A DNA stretch of 64,000 nt from Escherichia phage phiEc_1. This document shows, piece by piece, positions 5,048-64,000 of this stretch. The notes below the pieces were generated by a model. That model was not told the DNA's origin. It searched no databases and saw only the letters and a program-made list of their open reading frames with translations. The stretch is taken from sequence record LC768462.1; one strand, written 5' to 3'. The stretch's first letter is position 1. Every line of letters begins with the position of its first letter. The position numbers and the translations under genes were made by a program.

Positions 5048-5782
5048 ATGAAAGCAATTGTATTATCCTCAATCCTAGCTCTGTCCGTAATGGCATCGCC
5101 TGTTTTTGCTAAAAGTGGAAACAATGGCAATGGCAATGGAGGTTGTGGTGTAGGTCAATCTACCAATGGTTGCGGTATCGGAGATTGGTTTAAAGGTGAA
5201 AAAGGTGATCAGGGAGAGAAAGGCGACACTGGCGCTAATGGCATTGATGGTAAAGATGGCATTGATGGTAAAGATGGCATTGATGGTAAAGATGGCATTG
5301 ATGGTAAAGATGGCATTGATGGAGAACAAGGCGCTCAAGGTGAAAAAGGTGATTCTGGTGCAGATGGTAAGAAAGGCGAAACTGGCCTAACTGGTGCAGC
5401 AGGTTTGAATGGCGTTGACGGATTAAATGGCAAAAACGGTAAAGATGCAGATATGTCTGCCGTTAATGCTAACGCCAAATCCATCAAAGCTCTGGAACAA
5501 TCCACCAATAAACGTTTTGCTTCTTTGCAAAAACAAGTAGACCGTAACCGTGATCATGCCTCTGCTGGTATTTCTGGCGTGGCTGCAATGGCTAACATCC
5601 CGCAAGTAAGTCAAGGATCTGCTTTCTCTGTTGGTGCTGGGGTAGGTGCTTACGATGGTGAATCTGCTCTTGCTATTGGTGTTAGTGCTCGTTTCAATGA
5701 AAACTTAGTAACTAAAGCATCAGTGGCAATGACTTCAGAGAGTGACGCTGTTCTGGGCGCTGGTGTAAGTTACGAGTGGTAA
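5048..5782 (+). CDS. trimeric-autotransporter-like protein: signal peptide, collagen-like Gly-X-Y stalk, YadA-type C-terminal anchor
   Basis: Signal peptide MKAIVLSSILALSVMASPVFA; ~30 Gly-X-Y triplets; C-terminus ...GISGVAAMANIPQV...LAIGVSARFNENLVTKASVA...GAGVSYEW matches YadA anchor pattern. Confidence 0.7.
   Translation: MKAIVLSSILALSVMASPVFAKSGNNGNGNGGCGVGQSTNGCGIGDWFKGEKGDQGEKGDTGANGIDGKDGIDGKDGIDGKDGIDGKDGIDGEQGAQGEKGDSGADGKKGETGLTGAAGLNGVDGLNGKNGKDADMSAVNANAKSIKALEQSTNKRFASLQKQVDRNRDHASAGISGVAAMANIPQVSQGSAFSVGAGVGAYDGESALAIGVSARFNENLVTKASVAMTSESDAVLGAGVSYEW
5240..5323 (+). repeat. perfect 18-bp tandem repeat (GGCATTGATGGTAAAGAT, about 4.6 copies) encoding GIDGKD
   Basis: Identical copies at 5240, 5258, 5276, 5294 plus a partial copy. 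Confidence 0.9.
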
Positions 5783-6779: not shown

Positions 6780-7005
6780 TATTAAATCCGATCGTACAAT
6801 GCTTCGCTTAAATAACATGAAGCCGGGCGTTCTATTTGAGCGTAAAGACTCTCTTTATATTAGAACCGACACACTATACGCAGATAACTATGTGAACTGT
6901 GTTGATGTGGTAACTGGAAAGCTCATGCCTTTTAAACGGGATGAAGTCTGCCAAGTACGTAGTGATCTTCACATAACCAACATAGAGGCTAAAGATGAAG
7001 ATTGA
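6769..7005 (+). CDS. small early protein, paralog family A
   Basis: GTG 6769 with AGGAG 8 nt upstream; shares G-x-F ... N/V-x-x-G ... P pattern with seven other ORFs. Confidence 0.5.
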   Translation: MKVNIKSDRTMLRLNNMKPGVLFERKDSLYIRTDTLYADNYVNCVDVVTGKLMPFKRDEVCQVRSDLHITNIEAKDED

Positions 7006-7246
7006 TCTTGAGATGAAAGCTAAAGAATTGTGTGTGGGTGATTTGAAACTTGGTGATGTATTCCAAGTTAAGGCAACATGTATTGATTATTACATGATCG
7101 TTCAGTTATATACACCACATGTGTCAGAGACTGATCTTCGGAATGGTTGTGTAGTGCTCAGTTTAAGCACCAATCAAGTAATGAAGCTAGATTCAAACTT
7201 ACCTGTTTCAGTTATCCATGATGCAGTAATTACCAATCGGAAGTGA
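6995..7246 (+). CDS. small early protein, paralog family A
   Basis: ORF track; family pattern. Confidence 0.5.
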   Translation: MKIDLEMKAKELCVGDLKLGDVFQVKATCIDYYMIVQLYTPHVSETDLRNGCVVLSLSTNQVMKLDSNLPVSVIHDAVITNRK

Positions 7247-9456: not shown

Positions 9457-9532
9457 GCGCTCTTAGCTCAATGGATAGAGCAGTAGCCTTCTAAGCTATT
9501 GGTTACAGGTTCGAGTCCTGTAGGGCGCACCA
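9457..9532 (+). tRNA. tRNA-Arg(UCU): tRNA-Arg (anticodon UCU, reads AGA), encoded CCA
   Basis: Cloverleaf folded by hand: 7-bp acceptor stem, D stem GCTC/GAGC, anticodon loop CTTCTAA, T arm ACAGG-TTCGAGT-CCTGT, discriminator A, CCA. Confidence 0.9.
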
Positions 9533-59256: not shown

Positions 59257-60060
59257 TTAGCTAATACGTCTCCAAATGTGAGCTGCTCTGAATGGTGGCA
59301 AAGTGTTAATAGGTTGACGAGAGATATCATCACGACCAAGACTTACACTACCAGAGATTGTATGAGTGTGAGTGTCGCTATCAGTTCTCTGACTGTAACC
59401 ACCACCCGGACTATACCAGTTTGGTGAGCTGTTATGACCACTAGCATCTCCACGACCAAACACCATATTGTGACTGTGAGTGTTACTGGATAGAGAGAAG
59501 CTGGAGCCATTAACTGTCATCAGAGGTACGTTCTCAGTTCGAATGGTATTGAAGACACGACCACCAGTACCACCTGCTTGGAACTCAACTCTCTGAGCAT
59601 TAGGGACAGAACCATCAGGGTTTACTACACCAGTACCCATAATGACACCAGTCACTTTAGCCCAAGAACCAAACCCTAAGGAGATAGAATCACCGGGGTT
59701 AATATCTTCTTCAGTGATGTAGTAAGAACCAATTCGATAGAGCTTATTCTCCATCCAGTTCTTCATGAACGCTTCCATCTGACCTTTAGTAACAACATCC
59801 TTGTCACCAGTTCCCGGAGTAACGTTCTTGATCATAAGACCACCAACATCCATTGCATCACCAGTAAACTTGAGCTTCTCTGACATAATCTTAAAGGTGT
59901 CAGAATCTATATCAACCGGTTCTGTAACATTGGGGAATGTGTTCTGTAACGTTTGTTTAATGAGGCGGATTTGAGCCGCCCCTTCGTAGATGTAATCCCT
60001 GTCTCTAGGATAGAGTGGGTTTAAGTCGGTAATAACTACCGCATTAGTTTCGATAGCCAA
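59257..60060 (-). CDS. tail fibre protein with His-rich HxH tip motifs
   Basis: TTG start with GGAGGTG SD; THSHNM...THTHT motifs. Confidence 0.5.
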   Translation of the reverse strand: MAIETNAVVITDLNPLYPRDRDYIYEGAAQIRLIKQTLQNTFPNVTEPVDIDSDTFKIMSEKLKFTGDAMDVGGLMIKNVTPGTGDKDVVTKGQMEAFMKNWMENKLYRIGSYYITEEDINPGDSISLGFGSWAKVTGVIMGTGVVNPDGSVPNAQRVEFQAGGTGGRVFNTIRTENVPLMTVNGSSFSLSSNTHSHNMVFGRGDASGHNSSPNWYSPGGGYSQRTDSDTHTHTISGSVSLGRDDISRQPINTLPPFRAAHIWRRIS

Positions 60061-60072
60061 AAGGCACCTCCA

Positions 60073-60564
60073 TTAATATTTACCTTCGGTGTAAAGATTA
60101 GCTTCTGCAACTCTTCTATTATGAAGACCCTGACTTCTCTGCTTCTCTCCCTTGACCGTTATTTTATCCCAACGAAGAAATTCGGAATAAACATCCCCCT
60201 TAACATCTCCATTGATTACCTTCCTTAACTTAGATGTGCTCAAAGCCCCACTGCCAACATTGAAGTTGAAAGAAGTGAGTGCATCAAACTCATGAACTAG
60301 TAAAGGAACCTTTATGTTCTTCTGAGTAGCACGAACAGAGTCTTGTGTGTCTCTATCTAGCAGAGCTAGACAATCCTCTATAGAATACGTTAATCCTTGT
60401 CTAACCGGATAACCATTCATATCGCGCGTAGCCCCTACACATATAGTCCAGATACCTGCGGAATCTTTATAAGCCTTTGTTCTCATACCCTCATGCTTCA
60501 TGATGAATTCCATTCCAGCTGGGCTTAAGTTTAGTTGTACAGGTGGCAATGCGACGTTATCCAT
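60073..60564 (-). CDS. endolysin, GH24 lysozyme (T4-lysozyme-like)
   Basis: EGMRTKAYKDSAGIWTICVGAT catalytic motif; FDALTSFNFNVG. Confidence 0.85.
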   Translation of the reverse strand: MDNVALPPVQLNLSPAGMEFIMKHEGMRTKAYKDSAGIWTICVGATRDMNGYPVRQGLTYSIEDCLALLDRDTQDSVRATQKNIKVPLLVHEFDALTSFNFNVGSGALSTSKLRKVINGDVKGDVYSEFLRWDKITVKGEKQRSQGLHNRRVAEANLYTEGKY

Positions 60565-60593: not shown

Positions 60594-60812
60594 TTAAGGT
60601 AGTATCTTTCTCAGAGCGTTAGATTCAGCATCAGGGCAAATAACAACTAAGTTATTTTGAATTGTTCTCTGCTTGCATTGAGAGCTAAGCTTCTCTACTG
60701 GAGCAGGGACAGTTACTAATGGATGAACTGCGCCTACAGGAACTGCGGTGGATACCACAACACCTGCGCCTAAACATATTAAACCATATGCAGCTTGTTT
60801 CATCATTTTCAT
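60594..60812 (-). CDS. small Pro-rich membrane protein adjacent to endolysin (possible holin or lysis accessory)
   Basis: AGGAG SD; single N-terminal hydrophobic segment; no canonical lipobox. Confidence 0.4.
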   Translation of the reverse strand: MKMMKQAAYGLICLGAGVVVSTAVPVGAVHPLVTVPAPVEKLSSQCKQRTIQNNLVVICPDAESNALRKILP

Positions 60813-60904: not shown

Positions 60905-63103
60905 TTACCTCTCTGCTAGTTTTGCTTCTAGAACTTCAATACGCTTCAGAAGGTCTTGAACAACCTGCATAGTATCAAGGAGCATAGGAGCTGAGTCTAG
61001 CTCTTTCTGTTCTTGCTCTACACCATCATTGTCGTGGAACCTACGAGTCTTAACATAAAGAGGTTCTACCTTTTCTGCTTGCTGTGCAATAACACCGCGA
61101 CGAGTTCTTCCTTGTTCATCACTGTTGTACACAAACGATTTGAAATCCAAACCTTTGATAGCCTTGATAGCTTTCTCAGGGGAAATATCTTGGATATTAT
61201 GTTTTAACCTTTCATCTGACACAGGATTCAAGGCAAGGGTATATGTTCCAGTAGAGCTGGGTTGCCAAGTATAATAGAAAATCTCATTCCTGTTTGGTCG
61301 AAGGGTTAGGCGACAACCGTATTTGTTGTCTTCATCACCTGCAACGTGCCAGCAAGAATCGGCAAAAGTTCCGGCGTCGTTGTGAATCATGCCAACATGA
61401 GTGGTGGTCTTGTATCCCCCACTAGATGTTTGAGAAGCACTTAGTATGGAATTGAAGGAGAAGTTAGACCCTATCCCTTGGTTGTCCATGGAGAATGTTC
61501 CTTTCCTAGCTCCTGTTTCACTCCAAGACATCAAAGTGCCAAATCTAGAAACATACCTATCAGAATTCAGTGTACCAGAATCGTCGAAAGCTAACTGCTT
61601 GGTAACTCCTTTAGTTTTATTATAGACGTCAATGATTCCATAGTAAGCTCCGTTGATGTAGGCATCAGTTTTGAGAGTAGTAGAAGCTTCTACTTCTGAA
61701 CCGATTTTATACTCAGAGACAACTGACCCACTAGAAACTTTCGTTCCGTTGGAAGGTCGTGTGGTGTCACTATTAATAACAGACCAAGAAGTATTAGCAG
61801 CAACAAATCCACCATGAGCACGAATAGTCCAAACCCCCACAAAGTTTCTCGGTATAATGTTGTCAGAGATACTATAACGACCATAAACTGGGTTGGACTG
61901 GCTTGCGTCGAAGACTAGAGTATTATTACGTCCACCAACTGCACCGGACCCCGGAGGTATAGTGTCCCCTCCACCAGCCGGATACAAACTGTTATCCGTA
62001 TAGAATGAATCTTGCACAGACGTCCCGAATATCCCTGCATAAGTCCCGGCTGATACACCAGCGACCTTACCTTTGATATTAGGTGCAGCAGAATCATAGA
62101 TAACACCATCGTTGGATGATGTACCACCATCACCGCGACCAAATAGCTCCCTAATAGAACCGACCTGAACCCCGTTGCGGTCTGGAACGCGGAAAGTAGT
62201 AGAACCATCACCAGTAGAGTACTGTCCACGTTTTTGGGCATCACTAAGCCATTCAGAATCTGAGATAGGGGATAACAGCTGTGCATAAGCCCAGAGATCT
62301 GGGTACTCTGAACGATTAAGAAGCTGACCGTCTGACGTTACCTCAAAAGCTGGAATAAAAGCTCGACTGTCACGTAAATGGAAATCACCAATACCAAAGT
62401 TAGAGATACCGCTCATCGTAGGACCACCAGAGCCACCACCACTGTTTCGAAGCTGTCTCAAAGTAACCGCATCATAATCACCAACTGCATCAGGGACAGT
62501 TACTGGTTGAGTGAAAGTAACTTTCTGTGTGAGCTGTTTGATATCAGAGTTAATCCCTGTACGAGTAACACCTACCGTACGACCTTTAGAGTCTTTAACA
62601 TAAGAACCAATTGCAGCAAAAGGCAAATCCTCAATCTCAGGACGGTAACGTTTAGAATAAACTGGATACTTAGTTTCTACCCCAGAGTCATTCTGGTCAA
62701 CAACCTGAAGACGACCAGCAGAATGAATCTCTACACCTTGAACTGAAGAGGCATAACTACCAATCTTGATTGAGTTATCAGTAGTAACTTTCATCATATC
62801 AACTGATTCTACACCATTAGCTCCAGTAGAACGGAATGGGGTATCATTAACAACCCAAGGGTCTTCTCGGAACAGCGCACCAGACATAATAGGTTGAATC
62901 GAATCCAGCACAAAATCTTTAGATGCACCCTCTGTTTTAGTTTGATAGGTAGCAGCTGCGTCGGTTTTCTGTAAATATTTTCCGGTGAGGTTAATAGCTC
63001 CAGCCTGTCCATCTACAGTAGAAACCCCAACAACAGCCGCGTCTCTGGTTACAACCACATGAGGCATCATTATACCAGATTTGGGCATTAATTCTCTAGA
63101 CAT
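60905..63103 (-). CDS. tail fibre/spike with C-terminal intramolecular chaperone (peptidase S74-like) domain
   Basis: C-terminal SDERLKHNIQDIS...GVIAQQAEKV...LEAKLAER matches the chaperone signature. Confidence 0.75.
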   Translation of the reverse strand: MSRELMPKSGIMMPHVVVTRDAAVVGVSTVDGQAGAINLTGKYLQKTDAAATYQTKTEGASKDFVLDSIQPIMSGALFREDPWVVNDTPFRSTGANGVESVDMMKVTTDNSIKIGSYASSVQGVEIHSAGRLQVVDQNDSGVETKYPVYSKRYRPEIEDLPFAAIGSYVKDSKGRTVGVTRTGINSDIKQLTQKVTFTQPVTVPDAVGDYDAVTLRQLRNSGGGSGGPTMSGISNFGIGDFHLRDSRAFIPAFEVTSDGQLLNRSEYPDLWAYAQLLSPISDSEWLSDAQKRGQYSTGDGSTTFRVPDRNGVQVGSIRELFGRGDGGTSSNDGVIYDSAAPNIKGKVAGVSAGTYAGIFGTSVQDSFYTDNSLYPAGGGDTIPPGSGAVGGRNNTLVFDASQSNPVYGRYSISDNIIPRNFVGVWTIRAHGGFVAANTSWSVINSDTTRPSNGTKVSSGSVVSEYKIGSEVEASTTLKTDAYINGAYYGIIDVYNKTKGVTKQLAFDDSGTLNSDRYVSRFGTLMSWSETGARKGTFSMDNQGIGSNFSFNSILSASQTSSGGYKTTTHVGMIHNDAGTFADSCWHVAGDEDNKYGCRLTLRPNRNEIFYYTWQPSSTGTYTLALNPVSDERLKHNIQDISPEKAIKAIKGLDFKSFVYNSDEQGRTRRGVIAQQAEKVEPLYVKTRRFHDNDGVEQEQKELDSAPMLLDTMQVVQDLLKRIEVLEAKLAER

Positions 63104-63143: not shown

Positions 63144-64000
63144 TTACTCAGAAGGCATTTCAACACGAACTGAAATAAAAGCATCACTCGGGATATCAAT
63201 AGGATCACCGTCAGAAAAACCTTCTATCTCATTTCTAGCAAAAACCGGAGAGGTTGGATGGGTTCTGTGATAGGTTTTAACTAAAATAGAACCATCTTCT
63301 TTAATCTCATAGTCCAGCCAAACCCTAGGTTGTTTGTTGCGGTCAGTAGGGATTTCAAAGCCGCCGTCAATGCCTCCCCATTTTGCATCTGCGTTTAAGC
63401 CAAGGCAACCGGTAATCAAGTACTCACCAACACCTTGCCGAATGACATTAACCCCCTCAGATTCCTCGTTCGTCTCATATCGACCGTCGGAGTAAATATG
63501 AACTACCGGAGATGCCGCTTTGATAAATCCGTTTACATCAACAGTGGTGTTTTTGTTTGTAAGACAATGGACATATTTTATTGTTCCGTCTGCAATCTTT
63601 ATTGCGTAAGATATGCGACCGTATTGTGAGGCTTCGCCACCAGACCCTGCATATGACACACCGTGGGCAATCCAGAAGTTAGTATCCTCTGGCTGCATAT
63701 ACCAGTAGCAGTTAAACAAGTCTAAAGTAAACAGGCCGTTCCCGGAGGCATGTTGGACACGATCCCCAGTACCACCTACGCCTGAATTTGCTGGGGTGTT
63801 ACTTAGCGCTCCAATATTGAACCTTGCACCAGCAGCATCTCCAGCCCCTGTCCCACCATTAGCAATAGGTACATTATCCAGAGTAGAAACACTTCCCAAC
63901 CCTAGATTAGAACGAGCACCAGCAGCATCTCCAGCCCCTGTCCCACCATTAGCAATAGGTACATTATCCAGAGTAGAAACACTTCCCAACCCTAGATTAG
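63144..64000 (-). CDS. tail fibre protein, partial (N-terminus beyond window)
   Basis: Open frame runs off the window edge; N-terminal repeats LGLGSVSTLDNVPIANGGTGAGDAAGAR. Confidence 0.65.
   Translation of the reverse strand, partial: NLGLGSVSTLDNVPIANGGTGAGDAAGARSNLGLGSVSTLDNVPIANGGTGAGDAAGARFNIGALSNTPANSGVGGTGDRVQHASGNGLFTLDLFNCYWYMQPEDTNFWIAHGVSYAGSGGEASQYGRISYAIKIADGTIKYVHCLTNKNTTVDVNGFIKAASPVVHIYSDGRYETNEESEGVNVIRQGVGEYLITGCLGLNADAKWGGIDGGFEIPTDRNKQPRVWLDYEIKEDGSILVKTYHRTHPTSPVFARNEIEGFSDGDPIDIPSDAFISVRVEMPSE
63829..64000 (-). repeat. near-perfect 90-bp tandem repeat inside the tail fibre gene, truncated by window edge
   Basis: 63829-63910 is identical to 63919-64000. Confidence 0.85.

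What the first reader, a model, noticed from the sequence alone, without database searches (positions are those of the whole stretch)
63829..64000. 90-bp near-perfect tandem repeat in the N-terminal part of the terminal tail-fibre gene
Two identical 82-bp stretches are separated by an 8-bp variable linker and encode the 30-aa unit LGLGSVSTLDNVPIANGGTGAGDAAGAR-x-N. The repeat continues to the window edge, so copy number cannot be determined. Repeat number could vary by recombination and alter fibre length or attachment.
Basis: seen in the sequence. Interest (0 to 1): 0.4.

Follow-up and report, generated by a model that had tools for sequence, protein, structure and literature searches.

The report
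Duplicated 30-residue module in tail fibre
A coliphage related to phiEco32 and SU10 carries a very recent, exact, in-frame 90-bp tandem duplication of one 30-residue shaft module in its proximal long-tail-fibre gene, an ordinary kind of tail-fibre microevolution that relatives show in older, diverged form.

Summary
The repeat is real. Window 63826-63910 and 63916-64000 are identical (85 bp, cut by the window edge), a head-to-tail array of period 90 with no spacer. It lies on the minus strand.

The gene is the orthologue of the Kuravirus SU10 gp12 long-tail-fibre proximal protein. By comparison with the 852-aa MN03 orthologue, the repeat sits in the C-terminal third, just before the PF25670 C-terminal domain. 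It is not in the N-terminal part.

The unit is one 30-aa GGTGA..AR.NLGL shaft module. All 16 phage records that are at least 99% identical here, and all 11 members of the MN03 protein cluster, carry one copy fewer. In those genomes the unit is bounded by ATGCTGCT(A/G)GTGC, which fits slippage or unequal recombination.

More distant relatives have runs of 2, 3 or 4 such modules at this site. Their copies have diverged at the DNA level (46-69/90 nt), so these are old duplications. One other phage, TH34, has an independent exact 90-bp duplication.

An effect on fibre length is inferred only. An assembly artefact and the true copy number beyond the window edge cannot be settled here. This is a new allele of a known kind and of low interest.

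The parts
63144..64000 (-). 3' part (last 284 codons plus stop at 63144-63146) of the long-tail-fibre proximal protein gene, orthologue of SU10 gp12 and MN03 gp020. The gene continues beyond the window edge; about 570-600 codons are missing.
   Evidence: Open frame window:63144-63998:-. 99.1-99.8% nt identity to MN03 and other Kuravirus tail-fibre genes. The MN03 orthologue matches PDB 7z47_D 'putative tail fiber' of SU10 with E = 0.
63916..64000 (-). Upstream (5' in coding sense) copy of the 90-bp unit. 85 of its 90 bases are visible; it is cut by the window edge. It encodes (S)NLGLGSVSTLDNVPIANGGTGAGDAAGA.
63826..63915 (-). Downstream copy of the 90-bp unit. This is the copy that corresponds to the single unit present in MN03 and the other close relatives.
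   Evidence: MN03 contains the 90-mer exactly once.
63912..63929 (-). Novel duplication junction, between 63915 and 63916. In coding sense it reads ...GATGCTGCTGGTGC|TCGT..., that is, the end of one unit joined to the start of the next. It reconstitutes a canonical GGTGAGDAAGAR-SNLGL motif.
   Evidence: In MN03 the unit is preceded by AATGCTGCTAGTGC and ends with GATGCTGCTGGTGC (12 of 13 nt alike). A 38-mer across the junction is absent from the IMG/VR, JGI metagenome and GTDB genome contigs.
63150..63551 (-). C-terminal globular domain (Pfam PF25670, Phage_tail_C_2) that follows the module array.
   Evidence: Residues 150-283 of the fragment, E 5.9e-61. The AlphaFold2 monomer model is beta-rich with pLDDT 76-92 there. 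Foldseek against BFVD matches the C-termini of tail fibres of T1, Providencia and Salmonella phages. No PDB fold match.
60905..63103 (-). Context: the next gene downstream, the long-tail-fibre distal protein (T-shaped receptor-binding fibre with a Peptidase_S74 intramolecular chaperone). It is thought to attach to the C-terminal end of the proximal protein.
   Evidence: Pfam PF13884, E 2.4e-14. Annotated 'tail fiber protein' in ShigP1 and MN03. Roles taken from PMC9509320 and PMC11990801.

Best explanation
The window ends inside the gene for the proximal half of the long tail fibre of a Kuravirus (a podophage like phiEco32 and SU10). The C-terminal third of this trimeric protein holds an array of 30-residue modules of the form GGTGA-x2-AA-x-AR-x-NLGLGS-x-STL-x-N-x-P-x-A-x. 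The array leads into a globular C-terminal domain, to which the distal receptor-binding fibre is thought to attach. In this phage one module has very recently been duplicated in tandem, exactly and in frame: 90 bp, 30 codons. The most likely route is replication slippage or unequal recombination between the two 13-nt near-identical stretches ATGCTGCT(A/G)GTGC that bound the unit in the single-copy ancestor. The predicted product is a fibre protein of about 882 aa instead of 852, with one extra shaft module. I infer that this lengthens the proximal half-fibre slightly, by roughly 1-2 nm. That figure scales from SU10's 300-400 A fibre segments and its 786-residue protein. The change leaves both the virion-attachment N-terminus and the C-terminal domain untouched. 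What is shown: the repeat itself, the gene identity, the position in the protein, single-copy status in all close relatives, the microhomology, and natural module-number variation in more distant relatives. What is inferred: the mutational mechanism, that the duplication exists in the phage rather than only in the assembly, and any effect on fibre length or adsorption.
For: The exact 85-bp identity at offset 90 is far beyond chance. The gene is identified by PF25670, by 99% identity to Kuravirus tail-fibre genes with the same gene order of distal fibre, holin, endolysin and short fibre, and by the MN03 orthologue matching SU10 gp12 (PDB 7z47) with E = 0. gp12 is the long-tail-fibre proximal protein (PMC9509320). 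Sixteen records at least 99% identical over window 63600-64000 all align in two pieces spanning 328-331 bases of the record instead of 401, which means one copy. TRF finds no repeat in MN03 or ShigP1. All 11 members of the MN03 90% cluster are 852 aa. The unit in MN03 is flanked by AATGCTGCTAGTGC and GATGCTGCTGGTGC. The longest exact match between the two sides of the junction is 8 nt. A k-mer assembler therefore could not create the junction without reads that contain it (inference). Module number varies at the same site: MN03 2, NJ01/ECBP2/VTCCBPA_211 3, Bas88/P0126/P0127/P0130 4. Indels are phased on the motif: 30 aa between P0126/7 and ECBP2, and 94 aa between P0139 and P0142 with 294/295 identity downstream. 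Adjacent units in relatives are only 46-69/90 nt identical although up to 26/30 aa identical. These are therefore old duplications kept by selection, whereas the one here is new. An independent exact 90-bp duplication of a different-sequence unit exists in phage TH34.
Against: Only the assembled sequence is available, with no reads. The upstream copy is cut by the window edge, so neither the copy number nor the upstream context is seen. No other sequence in four collections carries this junction, so the allele is unreplicated. The gene is demonstrably hard to assemble in relatives. The ShigP1 record has a 96-N gap 5' of the unit in the coding sense, between two near-identical motif copies. The TH34 record is 'UNVERIFIED' and its ends overlap across its repeat. 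No structure of the module exists: SU10 gp12 is built only for residues 1-90, and the AlphaFold2 monomer gives pLDDT of only 60-76 there. The length effect is therefore a rough estimate.
Confidence: 0.65

Rival explanations
1. Assembly or consensus artefact: the phage has a single unit, and the second copy was created by the assembler or by polishing or scaffolding in a repeat-rich, hard-to-assemble gene.
For: The allele is unique among all close relatives and absent from the large contig collections. The same gene has a 96-N scaffolding gap in ShigP1. TH34's record ends overlap across its repeat and carry a frameshift difference. The repeat touches the window edge.
Against: The junction sequence does not exist in a single-copy genome. 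The two sides share at most 8 contiguous bases, so short-read k-mer graphs cannot mis-join there. At 175-180 bp the array is shorter than typical read pairs. The duplication is exactly in frame, is phased on the protein motif, and recreates a canonical module, as the real indels among relatives do. Neighbouring genes are intact and full length, which argues against a noisy assembly.
Confidence: 0.2
2. The visible 1.9 copies are the end of a longer array of three or more exact copies, or of a differently organised allele, so the event is a multi-step expansion rather than a single duplication.
For: The identity runs to the last base of the window. Relatives reach runs of four motifs. Perfect tandem repeats expand further more easily once two copies exist (general knowledge).
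Against: No relative has more than two identical adjacent units. The closest genomes (98.5-99.8% identical) are collinear with MN03 upstream of the unit.
Confidence: 0.1
3. Functionally selected, fast-switching length variation (a contingency-like locus). Under this view module number changes at high frequency and tunes adsorption to hosts with different O-antigen or capsule thickness.
For: There are at least three independent copy-number changes of different ages at the same site: Bas88-type, TH34 and this window. The long fibres of these phages mediate first contact, and the BASEL isolates depend on O-antigen (PMC11990801).
Against: There are only 2-4 modules. Established alleles have synonymously diverged copies, which suppresses recombination, the opposite of a contingency locus. 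There is no further copy or template repeat and no inverted repeats nearby. The module lies in the proximal half-fibre, not in the receptor-binding protein. No phenotype data exist.
Confidence: 0.05

Closest known systems
SU10 gp12, long-tail-fibre proximal protein of Kuravirus (PDB 7Z47/7Z4A/7Z4B/7Z4F; Siborova et al. 2022, PMC9509320)
   Same: Orthologous gene. The MN03 orthologue matches it with E = 0 over residues 1-507 and over the C-terminal domain. Gene order is the same, with the distal fibre gene following. It has the same GGTGA..NLGL modules and the same PF25670 C-terminus.
   Different: SU10 has only two GGTG motifs (786 aa) and a different insert before the C-terminal domain. The allele here has at least three motifs in one run. 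Only residues 1-90 of gp12 are solved, so the module structure is unknown.
Four-motif alleles of the same gene in Bas88 (StefiGeyer, 883 codons including the stop, i.e. an 882-aa protein) and metagenomic P0126/P0127/P0130 (882-885 aa)
   Same: They carry one extra 30-aa module at the same site relative to their 852-aa relatives (ECBP2), as a single 30-aa indel phased on the motif.
   Different: Their extra module is old: 69/90 nt and 26/30 aa identity to its neighbour in Bas88. Here the copies are 100% identical, and the genetic background is the MN03 type, which otherwise has a two-motif run.
Escherichia virus TH34 (MT446407.1, UNVERIFIED record)
   Same: Exact 90-bp tandem duplication (90/90 nt, TRF 2.6 copies at 99%) of a GGTGA..NLGL module in the same gene.
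   Different: Different unit sequence (GGTGATNAAGARTNLGLGNISTLNNVPVAS), in an SU10-type architecture at motif position 492/522. It is therefore an independent event. Record quality is doubtful.
T4 gp37 host-range mutants with tandem duplications of a small adhesin domain (Tetart et al. 1996, J Mol Biol 258:726; cited in PMC3157838; content recalled from my own knowledge)
   Same: In-frame tandem duplication of a short tail-fibre segment bounded by short conserved motifs that act as recombination sites.
   Different: In T4 the duplicated segment is in the receptor-binding tip and changes host range. Here it is a shaft module of the proximal half-fibre, and no phenotype is known.

Membership tests
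Kuravirus long-tail-fibre proximal protein (SU10 gp12 orthologues) | C-terminal PF25670 (Phage_tail_C_2) domain | tested here: met
   E 5.9e-61, 204.8 bits against a cut-off of 27, residues 150-283 of the fragment.
Kuravirus long-tail-fibre proximal protein (SU10 gp12 orthologues) | Collinear near-identity with annotated orthologues, and the orthologue matches the SU10 gp12 chain | tested here: met
   99.1-99.8% nt identity to MN03, Bas90 and others. MN03 gp020 against 7z47_D gives E = 0.
Kuravirus long-tail-fibre proximal protein (SU10 gp12 orthologues) | Gene order: followed by the distal (T-shaped, Peptidase_S74) fibre gene, holin, endolysin and short tail fibre | tested here: met
   ORFs 60905-63103, 60594-60812, 60073-60564 and 59257-60060 on the minus strand, with Pfam PF13884, PF00959 and PF21939. 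The same order is annotated in ShigP1 and MN03.
Kuravirus long-tail-fibre proximal protein (SU10 gp12 orthologues) | N-terminal ~90 residues that bind the adaptor | not testable with these tools
   The 5' ~1.7 kb of the gene lies beyond window position 64000.
GGTGA..AR.NLGL 30-residue fibre-shaft module array | Motif recurring at exact 30-residue spacing upstream of the C-terminal domain | tested here: met
   Canonical GGTGA..AR.N[LI] motifs at fragment residues 18 and 48, i.e. 30-residue spacing (a further bare GGTG at residue 75 is not a module motif). The same spacing is seen in 47 of 137 homologues.
GGTGA..AR.NLGL 30-residue fibre-shaft module array | Existence of a curated family model for the module | tested here: not met
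   No Pfam hit on the repeat region even at E <= 10. Only whole-protein PHROGs (1591, 10305) cover it. The module is therefore described here by its motif only.
Tail-fibre small-domain tandem duplication (T4 gp37 type) | In-frame tandem duplication bounded by short conserved sequence motifs | tested here: met
   90 bp = 30 codons; bounded by ATGCTGCT(A/G)GTGC.
Tail-fibre small-domain tandem duplication (T4 gp37 type) | Located in the receptor-binding tip, with an altered host range | tested here: not met
   The position is in the proximal half-fibre protein, upstream of its C-terminal domain. The receptor-binding domains are assigned to the distal protein. Host range is not testable.
Programmed tail-fibre variation (diversity-generating retroelement or invertible segment) | A second, non-adjacent template copy, or flanking inverted repeats | tested here: not met
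   The unit occurs only as the two adjacent copies in 64 kb. The only inverted repeat in 56-64 kb is a 21-nt pair, 76% complementary, 2 kb apart.
Programmed tail-fibre variation (diversity-generating retroelement or invertible segment) | Reverse transcriptase or invertase gene nearby | not tested
   The ORFs of the whole window were not scanned for these. None is named among the feature labels listed for related genomes.

The most novel reading that the evidence does not exclude
The GGTGA..NLGL module array of the Kuravirus proximal long tail fibre is a recombination-prone 'length ruler'. Motif-phased gain and loss of 30-aa (and 64/94-aa) modules happens often enough to be caught in the act, here and in TH34. 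Under this reading it is selected because fibre reach matters for getting through O-antigen or capsule layers of different thickness.
Probability: 0.15. Interest if true: 0.45.

Novelty: new member of a known kind. Interest (0 to 1): 0.2.

Why it matters
Taken alone it matters little. It is one more example of phage tail-fibre genes evolving by motif-phased duplication and recombination of short modules. It has two modest uses. First, it flags a place where Kuravirus assemblies are error-prone, which bears on annotation quality of therapeutic-phage genomes: ShigP1 has an N-gap and the TH34 record has overlapping ends. Second, together with its single-copy near-identical relatives it offers a natural, nearly isogenic pair. 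Such a pair could test whether the length of the proximal half-fibre affects adsorption in phages whose BASEL isolates depend on O-antigen.

Tried and rejected
- Pfam on the repeat region alone and on full-length orthologues at E <= 10 found no repeat family.
- A PDB sequence search found only SU10 gp12, a T5-like L-shaped fibre chain (8hqz) matching residues 246-472, and PhiM1 gp47 with a weak motif match. The PhiM1 paper says nothing about the motif's structure, and SU10 gp12 is built only for residues 1-90.
- The AlphaFold2 monomer of the 284-aa fragment, using a 43-sequence alignment, had mean pLDDT 61. The repeat units are predicted as short helices at pLDDT 60-76, which is not reliable for a trimeric fibre.
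- Foldseek against the PDB gave nothing below E 0.09. Foldseek against BFVD returned only other phage tail-fibre C-termini.
- Searches for the junction 38-mer in IMG/VR, JGI metagenomes and GTDB genomes gave 0 hits each.
- An exact look-up of the neighbouring 732-aa fibre protein, meant to find the source contig, found nothing on record.
- The source genome is not in the phage collection. The best matches are YW01 at 98.5% and EK5 at 99.1% over different parts of the window, so the sequence beyond the edge could not be recovered.
- The search for related loci in IMG/VR gave only 4 loci, all known isolates.
- A DGR or invertible-segment reading was rejected, because there is no template copy and there are no inverted repeats.

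Full report
**Observation**

The last 175 bases of the window form a perfect head-to-tail tandem repeat. Tandem Repeats Finder reports 63826-64000, period 90, 1.9 copies, 100% matches and no indels. A direct comparison at offset 90 shows an exact run of 85 bases, 63826-63910 = 63916-64000. It ends only because the window ends. The first mismatch is 63915 against 63825. The 85-mer occurs exactly twice in the window at up to 3 mismatches, with none expected in 100 shuffles. It is the only sizeable direct repeat in 56-64 kb.

There is no spacer. What differs is the flank after the last copy compared with the junction between the copies.

**Strand, frame and gene**

All genes at this end of the window run on the minus strand. 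The frame window:63144-63998:- is open for 284 codons and ends with a stop at 63144-63146. It reads NLGLGSVSTLDNVPIANGGTGAGDAAGAR-S-NLGLGSVSTLDNVPIANGGTGAGDAAGAR-FNIGAL..., followed by a domain that matches Pfam PF25670 (Phage_tail_C_2) at E 5.9e-61.

The window belongs to a Kuravirus (Gordonclarkvirinae; podophages related to phiEco32 and SU10). Its last 3 kb are 99.7% identical to Shigella phage ShigP1 and 99.1% to Escherichia phage MN03. The gene order is the same as in those phages: this fibre gene, a second fibre gene with a Peptidase_S74 chaperone, holin, endolysin and short tail fibre. The source genome itself is not in the phage collection. The best matches are YW01 at 98.5% for 39-63.8 kb and EK5 at 99.1% for 1-24 kb.

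The complete orthologue in MN03 is annotated as 853 codons including the stop, that is, an 852-aa protein. It matches the PDB chain 7z47_D of phage SU10 with E = 0. According to Siborova et al. 2022 (PMC9509320) that chain is gp12, the 'long tail fiber proximal protein'. Its first 90 residues dock on the adaptor. The following gene, gp13, is the distal protein. The fibre is 700 A long with one elbow that divides it into 300-A and 400-A segments. The BASEL-II paper (PMC11990801) describes the distal protein as a T-shaped fibre with two receptor-binding domains that attaches to the long proximal fibre. It also reports that the BASEL isolates depend on O-antigen.

In MN03 the unit is residues ~597-626 of 852, in the C-terminal third and just before the C-terminal domain.

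**What the unit is**

The C-terminal third of these proteins contains GGTGA-x2-AA-x-AR-x-NLGL motifs. They are spaced either exactly 30 residues apart or ~61-68 residues apart where a small insert follows. No Pfam family covers this module, and no solved structure does either. An AlphaFold2 monomer model gives the same short helices in both copies, at pLDDT of only 60-76. I treat that as a hint only. The same motif is present in ~430-aa prophage tail-fibre proteins of Enterobacter, Escherichia and Salmonella that share the C-terminal domain.

**Comparison with close relatives**

MN03 contains the 90-mer once, and TRF finds no repeat in MN03 or ShigP1. Sixteen phage records are at least 99% identical to window 63600-64000. 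All of them align in two pieces spanning 328-331 bases of the record instead of 401, which means they have one copy. All 11 members of the MN03 90% protein cluster are 852 aa. The window therefore carries at least one extra unit, which would predict a protein of about 882 aa.

In MN03 the unit is preceded by AATGCTGCTAGTGC and ends with GATGCTGCTGGTGC. In the window the junction reads GATGCTGCTGGTGC|TCGTTCTAATCTAGGG. This is what slippage or unequal exchange between those two 13-nt stretches would produce, with the crossover in the last four bases. It also recreates a canonical GGTGAGDAAGAR-SNLGL motif.

**Comparison with more distant relatives**

Module number varies at this site. The run of 30-residue-spaced motifs before the C-terminal domain is 2 in MN03, 3 in NJ01, ECBP2 and VTCCBPA_211, and 4 in Bas88, P0126, P0127 and P0130. 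Among 137 homologues the longest runs are distributed as 1: 64, 2: 17, 3: 21 and 4: 9.

P0126 and P0127 (882 aa) differ from ECBP2 (852 aa) by a single 30-aa indel. P0139 (880 aa) differs from P0142 (786 aa) by a single 94-aa indel running from one GGTG motif to another, with 294/295 identity downstream. Indels in this gene are thus phased on the motif, which marks the motif as a recombination site.

Adjacent units in the established alleles are only 46-69/90 nt identical, even where they are 25-26/30 aa identical. Those are old duplications kept by selection on the protein. Only one other sequence has identical adjacent units. That is phage TH34 (MT446407.1), which has a 90/90-nt duplicate of a differently sequenced module at another motif position, so it is an independent event.

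**Real or artefact?**

I cannot see reads, and the junction 38-mer is absent from IMG/VR, JGI metagenomes and GTDB genomes. The gene is also troublesome for assemblers. ShigP1 has a 96-N gap between two near-identical motif copies. TH34 is an UNVERIFIED record whose two ends overlap across its repeat and differ by a frameshift.

Several points argue against an artefact:
- The junction does not exist in a single-copy genome, and its two sides share at most 8 contiguous bases. A k-mer graph could not mis-join there.
- The array is shorter than a read pair.
- The event is exactly in frame and phased on the motif, like the real indels among relatives.
- Neighbouring genes are intact.

I put about 0.65 on a genuine recent duplication, 0.2 on an artefact, and the rest on variants such as more than two copies or a selected fast-switching locus.

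**Likely consequence (inferred)**

The change adds one shaft module to each chain of the trimeric proximal half-fibre. The N-terminal adaptor-binding end and the C-terminal domain are left intact. Scaling from SU10 (segments of 300-400 A, 786 residues) gives roughly 1-2 nm of added length. Whether that changes adsorption is unknown. The receptor-binding domains are in the distal protein, so a direct change of specificity is unlikely. A perfect 90-bp tandem repeat should also be unstable and revert by the same mechanism.

**Relation to what is known**

The closest matches are the gene's own orthologues (SU10 gp12), the older four-motif alleles (Bas88 and others), and the independent TH34 duplication. 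The classical precedent is the set of tandem duplications of a small gp37 domain in T4 host-range mutants (Tetart et al. 1996, cited in PMC3157838; content from my own knowledge). Those lie in the receptor-binding tip, which is not the case here. There is no sign of a programmed system: no template copy and no inverted repeats.

**Verdict**

This is a new allele of a known kind of tail-fibre microevolution, of low general interest (0.2). It has a modest practical value as a natural near-isogenic test case for fibre length and as a warning about assemblies of this gene.

Noticed in passing
window 5048-5782 (+), repeat at 5238-5322: A second perfect in-frame tandem repeat, 18 bp x 4.7 copies at 100%, encodes GIDGKD collagen-like triplets. 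It lies inside a 244-aa secreted-looking protein with a Collagen triple-helix region (PF01391, E 8.6e-17) and a YadA-like membrane anchor (PF03895, E 2.5e-19). That is a trimeric-autotransporter-like protein encoded by a lytic podophage. An 'agglutinating adhesin' appears among the feature names listed under phiEco32's match to window 1-24000, but it was not mapped to this ORF. Copy number may vary here too.
   Followed up: partly
L001 (Shigella phage ShigP1, PQ818763.1) 6929-7024: The published ShigP1 record has a 96-N gap inside the orthologous fibre gene. The gap lies between the first and third near-identical GGTGAK(D/N)AASARSNLG motif copies. As a result the gene is annotated as a 251-aa 'hypothetical protein' plus small fragments, so assemblies of this gene break at the motif repeats.
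   Followed up: yes
L010-L012 (Escherichia virus TH34, MT446407.1) record start and end: The two ends of the UNVERIFIED TH34 record overlap by several hundred bases across the fibre gene. One end carries a 1-base difference (GTTTCAC against GTTATCAC) that truncates the called protein to 585 aa. Both ends carry the same exact 90-bp duplication.
   Followed up: partly
P0139 (880 aa) against P0142 (786 aa, phage vB_EcoP_HC-25922); also SU10 gp12: A 94-aa segment (one 30-aa module plus a 64-aa module with a small knob, containing 'NNGWGCY') is present or absent between two GGTGAK(D/N)AASARSNLGL motifs, with 294/295 identity downstream. This looks like a recent motif-to-motif recombination that changes fibre architecture more than the 30-aa duplication does.
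   Followed up: partly
L006 (NJ01) fibre residues 555-614; the same in phage 172-1 (P0124): Adjacent modules are 25/30 identical in protein but only 58/90 identical in DNA. This strong synonymous divergence between neighbouring repeats would suppress recombination between them.
   Followed up: no
window 9457-9532 (+): A single tRNA-Arg (anticodon TCT) gene lies in the early region of the phage genome.
   Followed up: no
window 63150-63551 (-) and homologues P0001-P0120: The PF25670 C-terminal domain, together with two GGTG modules, is shared at 45-81% identity with ~410-495-aa prophage 'tail fiber' proteins of Enterobacter, Escherichia, Salmonella and Citrobacter. By fold it is also shared with fibre C-termini of T1 and Providencia phages. 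This points to horizontal exchange of this end of the protein. It has no solved structure and no PDB fold match.
   Followed up: partly
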